DNA of 64,000 nucleotides from a virus. This document shows, piece by piece, positions 21,185-29,195 of this stretch. Positions within the stretch are counted from its first letter, which is position 1; each line of letters begins with the position of its first letter. The translations under genes were made by a program, and so were the position numbers. The notes beneath the pieces are model-generated. The model had not been told where the DNA came from, searched no databases, and was given only the letters and a program-made list of their open reading frames with translations. Location of the stretch: positions 65,799-129,798 of IMG/VR virus record IMGVR_UViG_3300005337_000003, one strand, 5' to 3'.

Positions 21185-21287
21185 ACACTAGCAGCTTCCC
21201 TACTTAGATATTTCAGTTCAGAAATTAGCCAAATTCCTGCTGTAAACTCACCTAGGTTATTACAGCTATTTGGTTACCGCCCAGTGT
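21185..21287 (-). ncRNA. Candidate structured RNA with a 23S rRNA helix-11-like module
   Basis: ACACTGG/CTAGTGT, CCAAAT/ATTTGG, GCTGTAA/TTACAGC stems; GAACTGAAATATCTAAGTA. Confidence 0.55.
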
Positions 21288-21296
21288 AAAGGTCAA

Positions 21297-21491
21297 GGTC
21301 TTTGGCAGAGTTTGATACCTGCATGACAACCCGATATTTATTTCGCCATAGGCCTCCTCCGAAAAGGTGTGTTCAGGTCGGGAATTTCATAACTAAGCAG
21401 TCATTCGGTGTTCCATATTAAGGCCACATTACCTAATGCTTAATCAATTATTGTCTTATTAAATTAGCGTCTATTCTTCCGCCACAAAGAC
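21297..21491 (-). ncRNA. tRNA-like RNA with a ~135-nt insert
   Basis: GTCTTTG/CAAAGAC acceptor, TGGCGGAAGAATAGACGC D arm, GCAGG-TATCAAAC-TCTGC T-like arm. Confidence 0.6.
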
Positions 21492-21503
21492 ATTTGACCA
21501 ATA

Positions 21504-21515
21504 TTTCAAAAGAAC
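21504..21515 (-). promoter_or_regulatory. boxA-like antitermination motif
   Basis: GTTCTTTTGAAA just before the tRNA-like element. Confidence 0.4.
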
Positions 21516-21518
21516 GTA

Positions 21519-21598
21519 AGCAGCGGTGACCATTCACCGGGGGCGCCAAACGAGATCGGCTTATCCCCTACGTCCTGTATTCGCCCAGGACTGCTGCC
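21519..21598 (-). ncRNA. Candidate four-way-junction RNA
   Basis: GGCAGC/GCTGCT closing stem plus three hairpins. Confidence 0.45.
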
Positions 21599-21607
21599 AT
21601 TTCAATT

Positions 21608-22411
21608 TTAATTCATCCGCTGATTAACAACAGTCTCGTCGGATGCCTCCGGTCCCCAGGCGGTTTCCACCAGATAATACTTCTCGCCATTATAACACAC
21701 CGGATGCAGAACAATAGGATCGTCGTCAATAATCTGGTGGCCTTTCACTGCCTTACGTTCCATATTAAAATACTTAACAGGGGCAACAATTTCTCTGGAG
21801 ACTTTAATTACTTTTTCTACCCAACGCACACCATACCCCCCATGCCCTCGGTATTGTTTTTCGCAGGAGATAAAGTCCTTATATGTAATTAGTTTAGAAT
21901 CAATAATAGTCCTTCCCATACTTGTTTTCATTTCTAATGCATAACATTCATCCTCCGGATTGATCTTAAACGCTTCCATTTCCTTGAGGTTCTTTTCCGG
22001 GATCTCACCGATAAAATCACTTACCGTTCCCAGTACCAATCCATATTTATCACATATATCCTTAACGGCATCCGCTGTAATAAATTTATATTGCGGATAA
22101 GTTCTGGAAAAGAATTCCAATGCGGTTCTTTGTTTTTCATAGAATGATAACTTTCGGTTCAACTGGAAAGCCCGTGTAACCTCCTTTGAACTTGTAAACC
22201 CTAAGGCTTCTAATCGTTTAGATTTTTCCGTGATTTCGGCGTGGCTACATTTCAAATCTGATATAGTGGATGTAGCGGCCTGGAGGACCAGACTACCTGC
22301 GCTGTTGAATTCACGATGTACCTCCTCCACCAGCTCCTGCTGGCTTTTGCCTTGGGACGCTGAGTACCTCGACTCTGTATCCGCTTTTTTGTTCCAGTTA
22401 AATAACCTCAT
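21608..22411 (-). CDS. Hypothetical phage protein
   Basis: ATG 22411 (MRLFNW) right after the promoter. Confidence 0.7.
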   Translation of the reverse strand: MRLFNWNKKADTESRYSASQGKSQQELVEEVHREFNSAGSLVLQAATSTISDLKCSHAEITEKSKRLEALGFTSSKEVTRAFQLNRKLSFYEKQRTALEFFSRTYPQYKFITADAVKDICDKYGLVLGTVSDFIGEIPEKNLKEMEAFKINPEDECYALEMKTSMGRTIIDSKLITYKDFISCEKQYRGHGGYGVRWVEKVIKVSREIVAPVKYFNMERKAVKGHQIIDDDPIVLHPVCYNGEKYYLVETAWGPEASDETVVNQRMN

Positions 22412-22415
22412 GACA

Positions 22416-22479
22416 CAAATATAAGCACAGAATTGCAAATATGCAAATTTATTTTGTGGTAATTTTTTTATTATATTTG
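22416..22479. promoter_or_regulatory. Divergent Bacteroidota-type promoters
   Basis: Minus: TTTG-N20-TATATTTG; plus: TATATTTG at 22472. Confidence 0.65.
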
Positions 22480-22502
22480 ATCAAACCAAAACACAAAAAT
22501 AA

Positions 22503-22658
22503 ATGGCAAAACATCCTGGCTTCAAAGCCGTACAAAACAAGATCGCCAGCAAGGAAGGTATCAGCAAGAAAGCAGCTGGTGCGATCCTGGCAACATCCAC
22601 CCGCAAGGCTAGTCCGGCGGCAAAGAAAAAGAATCCTAACCTGAAAAAGGTTAAGTGA
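22503..22658 (+). CDS. Small basic phage protein (51 aa; not in the ORF track)
   Basis: MAKHPGFKAVQNKIASKEGISKKAAGAILATSTRKASPAAKKKNPNLKKVK; own promoter and terminator. Confidence 0.7.
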   Translation: MAKHPGFKAVQNKIASKEGISKKAAGAILATSTRKASPAAKKKNPNLKKVK

Positions 22659-22676
22659 TCAATCACTAAAAAAAGA

Positions 22677-22703
22677 AAGGCCCAGCGATAAACTGGGCCT
22701 TAA
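22677..22703. terminator. Bidirectional terminator
   Basis: AAGGCCCAG/CTGGGCCTT between convergent genes. Confidence 0.7.
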
Positions 22704-26666: not shown

Positions 26667-26783
26667 ACAAATAGGACGAAACACCGTATCCATTGAGTGA
26701 AGCTATAAGATTACCCGCATTTTACCATACTTTTTAGGCGTTTGGCTGAGTAAAGCGTCGTATGAATTGCCACAATTCAGATC

Positions 26784-26882
26784 TTTTCCGCCTTTATACC
26801 TGGTACCAGGCAACCTTTTAGCCTCCAGATCGGCACGTTTTCCGCCTTAAAGCCTGTCTGTTCAGGCATCAAGCCTCCAGAT
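26784..26882. repeat. Two ~54-bp imperfect tandem repeats with internal palindromes
   Basis: TTTTCCGCCTT...AGCCTCCAGAT x2. Confidence 0.6.
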
Positions 26883-27363
26883 AAAACTTTTTTCGGCTCT
26901 GTTCCGCGTCCCTCTAAGGCTACAGGCTCATTTTTGGCCTTTTTTAGGGGCAAATAGAGCGCATATTTGGCTTCCAGCTGTGCTGTGGGCCGGTTTATTT
27001 AATTCTGGCGCCATTAGCTGGCTTTTCGGTGTAAGTTATTGAGAATTAAGGAGATGAGTTGGGGTTTGGTCTTGAATTTTGCGGCCCGCCCCCACTTCAT
27101 TTCAACTGCGGCCTACCGGGCGGCTCTTATAGCGGCCCATCCGTAAATACTTTCTACTGTTCTTGGAGGTGGGATCAGGTATAATATCAAATAATAGTAT
27201 TCTTCCATAGTTGAGAGTGTAACCTGACAATATCAATATACGTATAAGCAGCATTAGGAAGATGATCCTGGGGCTTTGTGGGATGCTATGGCCTGTAAAC
27301 CGGCCAATTCCCGCTGTTTCACCAGCATTCGCCATACCTAACCACCAGCCACCTGTTAAATTT

Positions 27364-27394
27364 TTTGCGAGTATATCAAGCCGTACTATATTTG
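27364..27394 (+). promoter_or_regulatory. Bacteroidota sigma-A-type promoter
   Basis: TTTG-N19-TATATTTG. Confidence 0.75.
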
Positions 27395-27701
27395 CACGGG
27401 GATTGCCTTTATCTTAAAAGACTAAATATGAAAAAAATATCCACACTTACCGCCATAGCGGCCATGATGGAGGCTGCTGTCTTTTAACAAAGGAAGATAA
27501 TGAAGACATTAGCTTTATCAAAAATGCCAAGCTGCTAGCAGAAGGCTGAGTAGATCTAAGGGCGCGGCCTTTTTGCGAATCCAGCGGCATAACCTCCAAT
27601 CTGCAGCTCATAACTCATGAAGTAAAAGATTGCACTAAATTTCAACCTAAAGAATAAAAAGCATATTCAGATTTTACTACCCTCCAATAAAAAAATTAAA
27701 T

Positions 27702-28187
27702 ATGACACCAAGAATCCAAAAAGCAATTGACATTTTCCTCGACGCTATAAATGAGAGAACATTAACCAAAGGCAACTGCGCAGCATGTGCAGTTGGTAAT
27801 TTAGTGGCGACTGGAATGAACATAAAATTAAGACCCTATACGCTCTGCGAAAATTCAAACAGCGATTGGGGCAATCTATTTTATACTGACGAGACAGGCT
27901 GCCAGGTATACCGCAAAGATCTATTAAGCCCCACAGCATTAAAAAAGGCCATGGATAATATAGAGGCAACCGATTTCACAGAAACAGAGTTAATGCGCAT
28001 TGAACATGCATTTGAGACCAATACCAAAATTAGACATGAAAGCTACTATCGTTATCAAAAAGAACAAATACGCCAAGATCAAATAAAGGGCCTTGCAGCG
28101 GTAGTAGAAGTAATGCTCGAAATGGACAATTGCACAGAAAACACAAAAGAAGTATTTACCAAAAAAGCAGAGCTTATACCTATTTAA
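27702..28187 (+). CDS. Hypothetical Cys-motif protein
   Basis: GNCAACAVGNL. Confidence 0.7.
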   Translation: MTPRIQKAIDIFLDAINERTLTKGNCAACAVGNLVATGMNIKLRPYTLCENSNSDWGNLFYTDETGCQVYRKDLLSPTALKKAMDNIEATDFTETELMRIEHAFETNTKIRHESYYRYQKEQIRQDQIKGLAAVVEVMLEMDNCTENTKEVFTKKAELIPI

Positions 28188-28189
28188 TC

Positions 28190-28600
28190 ATGGAAAATAA
28201 CTTAAAAAAACTAATCGAGACCTATCAATGCCCTGGATGCATGATGGGAAATAGGATAGAATGCTTTAAGCCTGCGGAATATGGAAAGCAATGCGCTGCA
28301 CATCGTCCGGGCACATTTATATCTTCGATAGGTAAAATACTTCTTGGAATGCCAAAAGGCTTTGACCGGACAAATGATAGCCTGGGCGAATCCAAATACG
28401 ATCTGAAGATCCTGGAAGCGCCAGAGTACGATAAGTTCAATGTTGCTGTTTGGAAGCATCTCGACGGGCATGGCAATACACTAGTAAGGGGCCTAATGCC
28501 TCGGCTAAATCAACCTTTTGTACATATCTACGAAGGAGACCAACGGGATAAAATAAGCTGCCTGGAGATCACACAGGAAGACATTAACGAGATGGACTAA
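28190..28600 (+). CDS. Hypothetical Cys/His protein
   Basis: YQCPGC...CAAHRPG...VRGLMPRLN. Confidence 0.7.
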   Translation: MENNLKKLIETYQCPGCMMGNRIECFKPAEYGKQCAAHRPGTFISSIGKILLGMPKGFDRTNDSLGESKYDLKILEAPEYDKFNVAVWKHLDGHGNTLVRGLMPRLNQPFVHIYEGDQRDKISCLEITQEDINEMD

Positions 28601-28610
28601 AGATACCGCA

Positions 28611-28700
28611 TGGCCCCTATAAGCCGCGCGATTAAATGGACTGGTGGCGTTTTGATCTGTCTGCCGCCAGTAGCTTGCAGGACAGATTCGGACGGGGCCA
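28611..28700 (+). ncRNA. Candidate pseudoknot RNA
   Basis: 9-bp + 8-bp H-type pseudoknot inside TGGCCCC/GGGGCCA. Confidence 0.55.
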
Positions 28701-28711
28701 ATAGGTGAGAG

Positions 28712-28738
28712 AAGGGGAAGGTTAATAGCCTTCCCTTT
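28712..28738 (+). terminator. Intrinsic terminator
   Basis: GGGAAGG-TTAATAG-CCTTCCC-TTT. Confidence 0.6.
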
Positions 28739-28759
28739 ATAAAGTTCTTTGAAGATAAA

Positions 28760-29195
28760 CGGCTAAACATTGATCCATTGTAAATCGCTGCAAATAGGCG
28801 TTTAGATTGTACTTATTGGAGGTAAACCAATTAAAAATACCCCATATAGGACAGTAGTTTACATAAAGATACTAATCCTGAATTGACAGGATGATGAACC
28901 GGAGGATTTACCATACACTATATATCTTAACAGACTAGAGTGTTCTTAAGTGGAGTAGATCGCCGTAGTAGTTGCTGTAAAGCTAGATGTGTTGTTCCCT
29001 TGAGAAAGGAATCGATGACCAAAGCTATTAGAGCAGTGAATAAGAGAGTAAGGGACAAAGGTAGCTCTACAACACAAATGAGACTCAGCAAGTAGTTAGT
29101 TACATTCCTAGTCTTAATTGATAGAGTGTGTAATACGATGGCTTAACATTAGCTTCTAACTATGTGACCCTACTCTTTCAGCAGACAAGAGGGTG
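28760..29195 (+). ncRNA. Large multi-stem (ornate) ncRNA candidate
   Basis: ORF-free; boxA-like GTTCTTTGAA at 28744; about 10 stems including TGTGTTGT/ACAACACA, TTGCTG/CAGCAA, TAGTTAG/CTAACTA. Confidence 0.6.

What the first reader, a model, noticed from the sequence alone, without database searches (positions are those of the whole stretch)
21185..29195. A phage RNA toolkit: three ORF-free clusters of tRNA-like and ornate RNAs around the strand switch
Seen: at least eight separately foldable elements in three gaps (21185-21598, 25390-25952, 28611-29195). Two sit behind boxA-like GTTCTTT(T)GAA motifs, and none is a fully canonical tRNA. Known: phages cluster tRNAs with large ncRNAs such as GOLLD. 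Inference: a co-expressed set of translation-apparatus mimics, acting either as decoys for host tRNA/rRNA-targeting defence or as ribosome-modulating RNAs.
Basis: partly seen in the sequence, partly recalled or inferred. Interest (0 to 1): 0.75.

Follow-up and report, generated by a model that had tools for sequence, protein, structure and literature searches.

The report
Two tRNA mimics, not an RNA toolkit
Only the middle of the three gaps holds real tRNA-like RNA genes: a 58-base anticodon-less alanine-type mini-RNA like the message-less tmRNA of mycobacteriophage DS6A, and an odd 87-base CCA-ending tRNA look-alike; the other two gaps look like ordinary terminator and spacer DNA.

Summary
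The window is the second half of a complete 129.8-kb crAss-like phage genome.

**What is confirmed**
- The three gaps exist and hold no credible protein genes.
- No element is a canonical tRNA. Rfam's tRNA model finds nothing in the whole genome, and ARAGORN makes one weak call.

**What is not confirmed**
- The idea of one co-expressed toolkit does not hold. Gap 1 lies on the minus-strand late operon; gaps 2 and 3 lie on the plus strand, separated by terminators.
- The AT-rich bulk of gaps 1 and 3, including the proposed ornate RNA, folds no better than shuffled sequence.
- Those two gaps hold one strong four-way junction, a structured 3' end and a terminator.

**Gap 2 is a real small-RNA locus**
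- It starts with four hairpins, each with UUGUG in the loop.
- Element A (25519-25576) has the full alanine identity set, a canonical T arm and no anticodon arm.
- Element B (25666-25752) has a perfect acceptor stem, T arm and CCA, but oversized D, anticodon and variable loops.

**What element A is**
- Patterns and models taken from A recovered dozens of 54-64-nt look-alikes in viral contigs, with compensatory stem changes.
- A model of the tmRNA-like subtype, built without A, finds the DS6A 'TLD-only' tmRNA at 52 bits, A at 29.7 bits and a true tRNA-Ala at 21.8 bits.
- A is therefore a divergent variant of a known, barely described class. This scan has already met that class in at least 22 other genomes.

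B has no relatives in the DNA searched.

The parts
21517..21602 (-). Four-way junction (6-bp closing stem plus three hairpins) starting just after the stop codon of the 276-aa gene, followed by a U-rich tract. Read as a 3'-end or terminator structure.
   Evidence: MFE -39.9 kcal/mol, 58% of the ensemble, z -3.74, 0 of 200 shuffles as good. Minus strand -39.9 against plus strand -34.4. No T loop, no Rfam match. Relative L011 has a plain hairpin plus U tract at the same position.
21505..21515 (-).
   Evidence: One of 3 genomic copies; one copy lies inside a 2354-aa ORF.
21161..21504 (-). AT-rich, ORF-free spacer upstream of the 109-aa gene. No structure above chance.
   Evidence: z -0.22 and -0.46. 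No ORF of 40 aa or more. No similarity in 35 related loci.
25390..25515 (+). Four consecutive hairpins (25390-25412, 25429-25445, 25451-25477, 25478-25505), each with UUGUG in the loop. The last is an 11-bp GC-rich stem with a U tail, a strong intrinsic terminator.
   Evidence: z -3.49, 0 of 200 shuffles. Terminator scan. Sequence read.
25519..25579 (+). Element A: 58-nt anticodon-less alanine-type tRNA-like RNA, plus a 3' CUA. It has G1-C72, G2-C71, G3.U70, G4-C69 and A73, a D-loop-like GGGGUCAAC, a 4-bp hairpin, and a T arm CGCUG/UUCGAGU/CAGCG.
   Evidence: The predicted fold is 71% of the ensemble. 29.7 bits against model R3 of phage TLD-only minis, built without it. Look-alikes in L027, L039 and L163-L167. 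No hit to RF00023 or RF00005.
25580..25665 (+). Spacer between A and B with one hairpin (about 25610-25651). No tag-like reading frame.
   Evidence: z -2.03. Frames read by eye; none ends like a tmRNA tag.
25666..25752 (+). Element B: 87-nt tRNA look-alike. It has a 7-bp acceptor stem GGAGAGC/GCUCUCC, A73, encoded CCA and a T arm CCGGG/UUCGAUU/CCCGG. It also has a 14-nt D loop, an 8-nt anticodon loop UUUGGGUU on a 5-bp stem, and an 8-nt variable region.
   Evidence: ARAGORN calls it a weak tRNA-Gln. No RF00005 hit at E<=10. z -2.0. Its 3' end is absent from 185,579 bacterial species except 3 chance hits. Model R2 finds only ordinary tRNAs and minis elsewhere.
25753..25959 (+). Trailer ending in the hairpin ACUAUC-GGAA-GAUAGU (25930-25945) and a U tract (25953-25959), the likely end of the A-B transcription unit.
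   Evidence: z -1.2 and -1.5. Sequence.
28611..28735 (+). Structured 3' end of the 156-aa gene: a Y-shaped element closed by GGCCCC/GGGGCC (28613-28699) and a terminator hairpin (28715-28735) with a U-rich tail.
   Evidence: z -2.49, 1 of 200 shuffles. Plus strand -51.1 against minus strand -42.6.
28744..28753 (+). GTTCTTTGAA motif, 9 nt after the terminator hairpin.
28754..29192 (+). AT-rich spacer proposed as an 'ornate RNA'. No structure above chance, no tandem repeats, no family match.
   Evidence: z -1.08, -0.64 and +1.44..

Best explanation
**Overall.** The stretch is not one RNA toolkit. It is a mosaic early/late switch region of a complete crAss-like phage genome. One of the three gaps, gap 2, is a genuine small-RNA locus.

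**Layout of gap 2.**
- It opens with four hairpins with UUGUG loops. The last is a strong terminator.
- A unit of about 440 nt follows. It carries element A and element B and ends at a hairpin plus U tract near 25930-25959.

**Element A.** A is a 58-nt RNA made only of an alanine-type acceptor stem, a tmRNA-like D-loop, a short hairpin and a canonical T arm. It is a divergent variant of the phage 'TLD-only' (message-less) tmRNA class first seen in mycobacteriophage DS6A.

**Inferred mechanism for A.**
- Host tRNA-processing enzymes cut it out.
- It receives CCA, because the gene reads CUA after A73.
- AlaRS can charge it through G3.U70.
- It cannot decode or deliver a tag, so it competes with host tmRNA for SmpB, AlaRS or EF-Tu. 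That damps or re-routes ribosome rescue during infection.

**Element B.** B is a phage-specific tRNA-shaped RNA under selection for its acceptor stem, T arm and CCA, but with a non-standard core. It is most likely a non-canonical tRNA or a tRNA mimic. Its partner is unknown.

**Gaps 1 and 3.** These hold structured 3' ends and terminators, followed by unstructured AT-rich spacers that probably carry promoters and leaders.

**Shown:** the anatomy, the family membership tests and the covariation in the family.
**Inferred:** processing, charging, SmpB competition and any role of B.
For: **A and B are real.**
- The genome has only three T-arm candidates. A and B lie 150 nt apart on one strand in one gap. 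Both have 7/7 acceptor pairing, G53-C61 and A73.

**A's class exists widely.**
- The pattern GGGG-N(29-40)-GTTCRANTC-N7-CTCCAC hit at least 120 IMG/VR loci.
- In 40 of the 162 matches all three unconstrained acceptor pairs form (binomial P = 2e-16).
- Those 40 give 34 unique sequences with 20 distinct T stems.
- Five further metagenome hits with A's acceptor stem mostly have fully paired T stems (one has 4 of 5 pairs); only G53-C61 of the stem was fixed by the pattern.

**The tmRNA-like subtype is a structured family.**
- In alignment A6, 99% of cells pair.
- All six pairs of the central hairpin covary. That helix was not used to select the sequences.

**Link to the known kind.**
- Model R3 was built from A6 without A or DS6A.
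- It scores the DS6A element (JN698994 28478-28560) at 52.1 bits, and Rfam tmRNA scores that element at 34.7 bits, E = 1e-12.
- It scores held-out members at 64-78 bits.
- It scores A at 29.7 bits end to end (E = 4e-6 in 701 nt).
- It scores a true phage tRNA-Ala at 21.8 bits and other tRNAs at 21 bits or less.

**Literature.**
- DS6A carries a 'TLD only' tmRNA. A similar molecule strongly inhibits tmRNA in E. coli, perhaps by titrating SmpB (PMC4131195; PMC11915505, citing Mao et al. 2009).

**Dependence on host factors.**
- The complete genome has no SmpB, CCA-adding enzyme or RtcB.

**Gaps 1 and 3.**
- z-scores are, strand asymmetry, and the lack of T arms.
- Terminators are listed.
- In relatives the same position holds small ORFs, a plain terminator or tRNAs.
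Against: - A fails Rfam tmRNA and tRNA at E<=10, even in a 76-nt search.
- A was dropped by R3's default filters. Its 29.7 bits is far below bona fide members.
- A reads UCAAC where the family reads UCGAC. It lacks the (G)GAC linker 3' of the hairpin, which in tmRNA is part of the SmpB-binding region. SmpB binding therefore cannot be assumed.
- A has no encoded CCA.
- A starts 14 nt after a strong terminator and no promoter was identified, so expression is unproven.
- No close relative of this phage exists in any collection searched. Neither A nor B could be tested for conservation in orthologous position.
- B has no homologues at all.
- No RNA data could be consulted.
Confidence: 0.6

Rival explanations
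1. A and B are decaying remnants of a former tRNA array, that is, pseudogenes without function. The rest is ordinary intergenic DNA.
For: Distant relatives carry tRNA arrays next to the same 276-aa gene: L014 has 17 tRNAs and L027 has 14. B departs from a tRNA in three loops at once. A lacks whole arms. Neither reaches any Rfam threshold.
Against: Decay should hit stems as often as loops. Yet both elements keep perfect 7-bp acceptor stems, 5-bp T stems, canonical T loops and A73. A's exact architecture and length recur in unrelated phage contigs with compensatory stem changes. A fits the TLD-only model better than a true tRNA-Ala does.
Confidence: 0.17
2. All three gaps encode a co-expressed set of translation-apparatus mimics that act as decoys for host nucleases targeting tRNA or rRNA.
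For: Gap 2 does hold two tRNA-shaped RNAs. From general knowledge, not tested here: phage tRNAs are known to counter tRNA-cleaving defences.
Against: The gaps lie on opposite strands and in separate terminator-bounded units. Gaps 1 and 3 have no tRNA-like element and their bulk is unstructured. A has no anticodon loop to be cleaved. No anticodon-nuclease-related or RNA-repair genes such as RtcB are present.
Confidence: 0.07
3. B is a working decoder: a proline-type tRNA (UGG followed by G) whose 8-nt anticodon loop reads four bases (CCC-A) and promotes +1 frameshifting.
For: The only stable anticodon stem (GUGGC/GCCAC) closes 8 nt, UUUGGGUU. The best non-self hit of model R2 is a phage tRNA-Pro(UGG) in L027, at 28.9 bits. 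The acceptor stem, T arm, CCA, U8, A14 and a GG in the D loop are intact.
Against: A screen of all +1-offset overlapping reading frames for an in-frame CCCA found only ordinary gene overlaps. Position 37 of the 8-nt loop would be a pyrimidine. The D loop (14 nt) and variable region (8 nt) are also abnormal. There are no homologues to show that the loop is conserved.
Confidence: 0.06
4. Gap 2 is protein-coding: the called 95-aa ORF at 25680-25967 or the 139-aa ORF at 25400-25819.
For: A gene caller predicted the 95-aa ORF (P0062). The gap is GC-rich and holds several ORFs.
Against: There is no homologue in 5.8 billion proteins. There is no Pfam or PHROG match for any ORF in the gap. The ORFs run straight through two tRNA-like elements and terminators. 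GC-rich DNA gives long chance ORFs.
Confidence: 0.03

Closest known systems
'TLD-only' (CDS-less) tmRNA of Mycobacterium phage DS6A (tmRNA Website tmID 11587; Mao et al. 2009 as cited in PMC4131195 and PMC11915505). Located here at JN698994 28478-28560.
   Same: - Phage-encoded and standing in an intergenic gap.
- GGGG...CUCC acceptor stem with G3.U70 and A73.
- tmRNA-like D-loop, then a single closing hairpin in place of the mRNA-like domain.
- Canonical T arm and no tag reading frame.
- Even the CUA after A73 is shared.
- Both match model R3 end to end.
   Different: - DS6A is 83 nt with a longer P2 helix. It keeps UCGAC and the 3' linker, and matches Rfam tmRNA (34.7 bits) and R3 (52.1 bits).
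- A is 58 nt, reads UCAAC, lacks the GAC linker, fails Rfam tmRNA and reaches only 29.7 bits with R3.
- The hosts differ: an actinobacterium against an unknown host. crAss-like phages, from general knowledge, usually infect Bacteroidota.
Message-less tmRNAs of jakobid mitochondria (Rfam RF02544) and the ~65-bp forms of Mallomonadaceae plastids (PMC11915505)
   Same: They are reduced to the alanine-accepting tRNA-like domain, have no tag frame and are of similar size.
   Different: They are organellar, co-occur with an imported SmpB, and presumably serve the organelle itself. No match to RF02544 was reported for A at E<=10.
Synthetic alanine minihelix or microhelix (Francklyn and Schimmel 1989; recalled from memory, not read here)
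   Same: An acceptor stem with G3.U70 plus a T arm is enough for charging by AlaRS. A contains exactly these parts.
   Different: Those are laboratory constructs. A is a natural gene with an extra D-loop-like segment and a hairpin.
Phage tRNA clusters with companion stable RNAs, for example GOLLD next to tRNAs (seen here in relative L019)
   Same: Non-coding RNAs cluster in one intergenic island of a large phage genome.
   Different: The window has no GOLLD or ROOL match, and no canonical tRNA anywhere in the genome.
Frameshift-suppressor tRNAs with 8-nt anticodon loops (sufA6/sufB2 type, tRNA-SufJ; PMC4238358)
   Same: B's anticodon stem closes 8 nt that contain UGGG.
   Different: Those are otherwise normal tRNAs. 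B also has an oversized D loop and variable region, and no target frameshift site was found.

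Membership tests
TLD-only (CDS-less) phage tmRNA | Alanine acceptor identity: G1-C72, G2-C71, G3.U70, G4-C69, A73 | tested here: met
   A reads GGGGAGU...ACUCUCC-A. G3.U70 is present in 25 of 29 aligned family members and in 11 of 11 in A6.
TLD-only (CDS-less) phage tmRNA | Canonical T arm adjoining the acceptor 3' strand; no anticodon arm; no tag reading frame | tested here: met
   T arm CGCUG/UUCGAGU/CAGCG. The only other helix is a 4-bp hairpin with an 8-nt loop. No tag-like frame lies in or next to A (read).
TLD-only (CDS-less) phage tmRNA | Significant match to a covariance model of the family built without the candidate | tested here: met
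   R3 scores A at 29.7 bits, E = 4e-6 in 701 nt, full length, with filters off. Controls: DS6A 52.1 bits, held-out members 64-78 bits, tRNA-Ala 21.8 bits. This is a weak pass, and default filters dropped it.
TLD-only (CDS-less) phage tmRNA | tmRNA-type D-loop GG..UCGAC and the (G)GAC linker 3' of helix P2 (the SmpB-contact region) | tested here: not met
   A has GGGGUCAAC (A in place of G) and a single G in place of GAC. The R3 alignment shows a 2-nt deletion there. All 11 A6 members keep UCGA and A38.
tmRNA (Rfam RF00023) | Match to the curated model | tested here: not met
   No hit at E<=10 in 624-nt and 76-nt searches. The DS6A element gives 34.7 bits in the same kind of search.
tRNA (Rfam RF00005), for elements A and B | Match to the curated model; cloverleaf with a 7-nt anticodon loop | tested here: not met
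   No RF00005 hit at E<=10 in the whole genome or in gap 2. B has an 8-nt anticodon loop, a 14-nt D loop and an 8-nt variable region. ARAGORN's call needs three G.U pairs in the anticodon stem.
GOLLD / ROOL and other large ornate RNAs, for gap 3 at 28760-29195 | Match to the Rfam model, or at least folding above chance | tested here: not met
   No hit at gathering threshold or at E<=5. z -1.1, -0.6 and +1.4. GOLLD is detected easily in relative L019 at 304.8 bits.
boxA antitermination site, for GTTCTTT(T)GAA | Position in a leader upstream of the regulated RNA, recurrence at several operons, and NusB/NusE binding | not testable with these tools
   There are only 3 copies in 129.8 kb, one inside a 2354-aa ORF. 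The two intergenic copies sit in the U-rich tails of stem structures.

The most novel reading that the evidence does not exclude
A and B work as a pair made from one early transcript. A, an uncharged or alanine-charged tmRNA-TLD mimic that has lost the canonical SmpB-contact linker, blocks host ribosome rescue by a route other than SmpB titration, for example by occupying AlaRS, EF-Tu or the empty A site. B, a CCA-ending tRNA with an 8-nt UUUGGGUU loop, acts on the ribosome as a non-standard (quadruplet or non-decoding) tRNA. Together they would be a phage device that reprograms stalled or slipping ribosomes.
Probability: 0.07. Interest if true: 0.8.

Novelty: new variant of a known kind. Interest (0 to 1): 0.42.

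Why it matters
Message-less tmRNA mimics are known in print from one mycobacteriophage and a few organelles. The scan's earlier notes report the same class in at least 22 other genomes.

This suggests a common and almost unannotated way for phages to touch the host's ribosome-rescue system. This copy extends the class to a crAss-like phage. It shows a reduced form without the usual SmpB-contact linker, which bears on how such RNAs act.

The report also removes a false lead. The 'ornate RNA' and the three-gap toolkit are not supported.

A practical point: gene callers put a spurious 95-aa ORF over element B.

Tried and rejected
- **Close relatives.** Megablast and blastn of the region against 50,697 phage records found nothing. 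Peptide-pattern scans of IMG/VR with the 114-aa, 276-aa, 70-aa and TerL proteins found no close relative. The 114-aa neighbour of gap 2 is an ORFan.
- **Distant relatives.** An alignment of 276-aa homologues (44% identity or less) fetched 35 loci. nhmmer of every gap against them found nothing. The position of gap 1 is not conserved as RNA in relatives; it holds small ORFs, a terminator or tRNAs.
- **Host tRNA copy or attP.** B's 3' 23-mer occurs in only 3 Amnibacterium stretches among 185,579 species. I rejected this idea.
- **One-piece or two-piece tmRNA across A to B.** There is no tag-like frame. ARAGORN calls no tmRNA at its default threshold. Rfam tmRNA_permuted gives 14.8 bits on B's T arm only. 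Rejected.
- **A companion of the B type next to minis in other phages.** None found.
- **A +1 frameshift target for B.** Nothing convincing.
- **Iterons or tandem repeats in the AT-rich spacers.** None found.
- **Alternative genetic code to close the gaps.** Reassigning any one stop codon did not stand out as closing the gaps.
- **Selection bias.** The covariation count on alignment A4 is biased, because I had pre-filtered the loci for paired stems. I rely on the raw-match statistic and on alignment A6 instead.
- **Tools.** So no expression data and no contexts of the closest protein homologues could be obtained.

Full report
**Setting.** The window is bases 65799-129798 of a complete virus record of 129,798 bp with direct terminal repeats. 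Genes on the minus strand run from 1 to 22438; they include TerL at 2555-4768. Most genes after that lie on the plus strand. The earlier notes of this scan describe a giant virion RNA polymerase in the other half of the genome, so this is a crAss-like phage.

The 'strand switch' is not a single point. Small genes alternate in direction between 22439 and 25018. The standard genetic code fits; reassigning any one stop codon did not stand out as closing the gaps.

**Checking the observation.**
- Gap 1 (21161-21607) has no ORF of 40 aa or more.
- Gaps 2 and 3 hold only short or GC-driven ORFs. Those checked, in gap 2 and the switch region, have no Pfam or PHROG match.
- The 95-aa ORF that a gene caller placed over element B has no homologue among 5.8 billion proteins.
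- Rfam at gathering thresholds finds nothing in 64 kb. Permissive searches give only noise.
- The Rfam tRNA model finds nothing at E<=10 in the whole genome. ARAGORN makes one weak call, at 25666-25752.
- So 'ORF-free' and 'no canonical tRNA' both hold.

**Folding against shuffles separates the pieces.**

| Piece | z-score |
|---|---|
| Four-way junction 21517-21602(-) | -3.74 |
| Four-hairpin block 25387-25514 | -3.49 |
| 5' part of gap 3 (28608-28735) | -2.5 |
| Element B | -2.0 |
| Spacer between A and B | -2.0 |
| Element A | -1.4 (its fold is 71% of the ensemble) |
| Rest of gap 1 | -0.2, -0.5 |
| 'Ornate RNA' stretch 28760-29195 | -1.1, -0.6, +1.4 |

- Every structured piece folds better on the strand of its flanking genes.
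- A scan of the whole genome for a T arm followed by an acceptor strand finds A, B and one in-gene chance hit. Tested that way, gaps 1 and 3 contain nothing tRNA-like.

**Gaps 1 and 3.**
- In both gaps the gene's stop codon is followed by a structured element and a U-rich tract. That tract contains GTTCTTT(T)GAA. An AT-rich spacer of 340-440 nt then runs to the next gene.
- The motif has three genomic copies, one of them inside a 2354-aa ORF. A boxA role is therefore unsupported.
- I read the motif as part of the terminator tails, or as a shared signal just after the terminator.
- In relatives the position after the 276-aa gene holds small ORFs, a plain hairpin with a U tract (L011) or tRNAs (L014).
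- No tandem repeats were found.

**Gap 2.**
- After the ORFan 114-aa gene come four hairpins, each with UUGUG in the loop. The last is an 11-bp GC-rich terminator.
- Fourteen bases later element A begins. It reads GGGGAGU / AGGGGUCAA / CCGG-AUCGUAUA-CCGG / G / CGCUG-UUCGAGU-CAGCG / ACUCUCC / A, followed by CUA.
- A carries the full alanine identity set (G1-C72, G2-C71, G3.U70, G4-C69, A73). It has a canonical T arm and no anticodon arm.
- Element B starts 89 nt further on. It has a perfect 7-bp acceptor stem, A73, an encoded CCA and a canonical T arm. It also has a 14-nt D loop, an anticodon stem that closes 8 nt (UUUGGGUU) and an 8-nt variable region.
- The unit ends at a GGAA-capped hairpin with a U tract near 25930-25959.

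**Relatives of A.**
- No close relative of this phage exists in any collection I could search.
- The 276-aa gene has homologues of 44% identity or less. These gave 35 IMG/VR loci with no nucleotide similarity to any gap.
- Single-sequence covariance models of A and B nevertheless found a 58-nt look-alike of A in L027. It has the same length, the same GGGGAG...ACUCUCCACUA ends and different internal stems.
- A pattern built from the shared features found a third copy, in L039, with a perfectly paired T stem; only one pair of that stem (G53-C61) was fixed by the pattern.
- In 40 of the 162 matches all three free acceptor pairs form (expected 5%; P = 2e-16). Those 40 give 34 unique sequences and 20 different T stems.
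- A metagenome scan with A's own acceptor stem gave five more, four with fully paired T stems and one with 4 of 5 pairs.
- ARAGORN calls almost none of these minis. Some stand alone and others sit inside tRNA arrays.

**Subtypes and the link to the known kind.**
- The minis fall into four groups:
  - a tmRNA-like type, with a GG..UCGAC loop, a 6-bp hairpin and a GAC linker;
  - D-armless tRNA-Ala(UGC)-like forms;
  - forms that keep only a D arm;
  - a group that shares A's GGGGAGU stem.
- The literature names the first kind. DS6A carries a 'TLD only' tmRNA, and a similar molecule strongly inhibits tmRNA in E. coli, perhaps by titrating SmpB (PMC4131195; PMC11915505, citing Mao et al. 2009, which I could not read).
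- I located the DS6A element at JN698994 28478-28560, between gp33 and gp34. Rfam tmRNA scores it at 34.7 bits.
- Model R3 was built from 11 tmRNA-like minis, without A or DS6A. Its alignment is 99% paired, and all six pairs of the central hairpin covary; that helix played no part in the selection.
- R3 scores:

| Target | Bits |
|---|---|
| Held-out members | 64-78 |
| DS6A element | 52.1 |
| Element A (end to end, filters off) | 29.7 |
| True phage tRNA-Ala | 21.8 |
| Other tRNAs | 21 or less |

- A therefore fits this class better than a real tRNA-Ala does, but only as a divergent form. It has UCAAC in place of UCGAC and a 2-nt deletion in place of the GAC linker. It gets no Rfam tmRNA hit even in a 76-nt search.

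**Mechanism.**
- Shown: the anatomy, the alanine identity set, the family and its covariation, and the absence of phage SmpB, CCA-adding enzyme and RtcB.
- Inferred from established knowledge: AlaRS charges minihelices through G3.U70 (recalled from memory). tmRNA needs SmpB.
- From this I infer that A is excised like a tRNA, given CCA and possibly alanylated. Because it has no message, it would compete with host tmRNA for its partners.
- The missing linker makes SmpB binding uncertain.

**Element B.**
- B's function is open. Its 3' end is not copied from any of 185,579 bacterial species; the 3 hits are chance. So it is not an attachment-site fragment.
- Its nearest scoring neighbour is a phage tRNA-Pro(UGG).
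- A screen for +1 frameshift sites at in-frame CCCA found only ordinary gene overlaps.
- No B-like partner accompanies minis in other phages.

**Verdict.**
- The three gaps are not one co-expressed set, and two of them are ordinary.
- Gap 2 is a real tRNA-mimic locus. Its element A is a new variant of a known, little-described class that this scan has already met in at least 22 other genomes.
- B and the four UUGUG hairpins remain unexplained singletons.

Noticed in passing
window 22433-22447 and 22965-22979: The exact 15-mer TTGCAAATATGCAAA occurs twice, and nowhere else in the genome. It has a TTGCA-N4-TGCAA inverted-repeat core. One copy lies at the divergent start region of the 276-aa gene, the other upstream of a small minus-strand lipoprotein-like ORF (about 22728-22940). 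It looks like an operator for a dimeric regulator.
   Followed up: partly
window 25390-25505: All four consecutive hairpins carry UUGUG in the loop, although TTGTG is not enriched genome-wide (243 copies, about the chance number). The complement CACAA is enriched upstream of start codons (8% against 2.4%). So is AACAA (18% against 4.2%), which points to A/C-rich leader composition rather than a specific target.
   Followed up: partly
It has C-rich direct repeats (C)CAATCTCTC at 24219, 24253 and 24482, and a 14-nt long-range complement between 23698-23711 and 23855-23868. I did not fold or compare it.
   Followed up: no
L019 13043-17021 (IMGVR_UViG_3300020577_007133): This distant relative carries a tRNA with a D-loop insertion of about 15 nt (13043-13133), a GOLLD RNA (14170-14595, 304.8 bits) and a full tmRNA (16627-17021, minus strand, 84.5 bits). 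All lie within 7 kb of a gene sharing the N-terminal domain of the 276-aa protein.
   Followed up: partly
L043-L162 (IMG/VR loci): Viral contigs hold several distinct kinds of 54-64-nt alanine-type mini tRNA-like genes besides the tmRNA-like kind. Examples are D-armless forms with a CUUGCAA (Ala UGC) anticodon loop (L086, L121, L098, L138), forms that keep only a D arm (L069, L161, L067), and a GACUGUAAAUC group (L080, L092, L097). Among the 39 perfectly paired minis checked, which exclude the GACUGUAAAUC examples L047, L097, L100, L109 and L147, ARAGORN called a gene over only two (L121, L113).
   Followed up: partly
window 27651-28598: The open frames 27651-28185 and 28040-28598 overlap by 145 nt, with the second in the -1 frame. 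The motif AATAACTTAAAAA, which also precedes the start of the 109-aa gene at 21160, lies in the overlap at 28196-28208. So this is more likely an internal start than a frameshift.
   Followed up: no
window 25680-25967: A 95-aa ORF is on record as a called gene of this contig. It runs through element B and the trailer and has no homologue, so it is probably a spurious annotation.
   Followed up: yes
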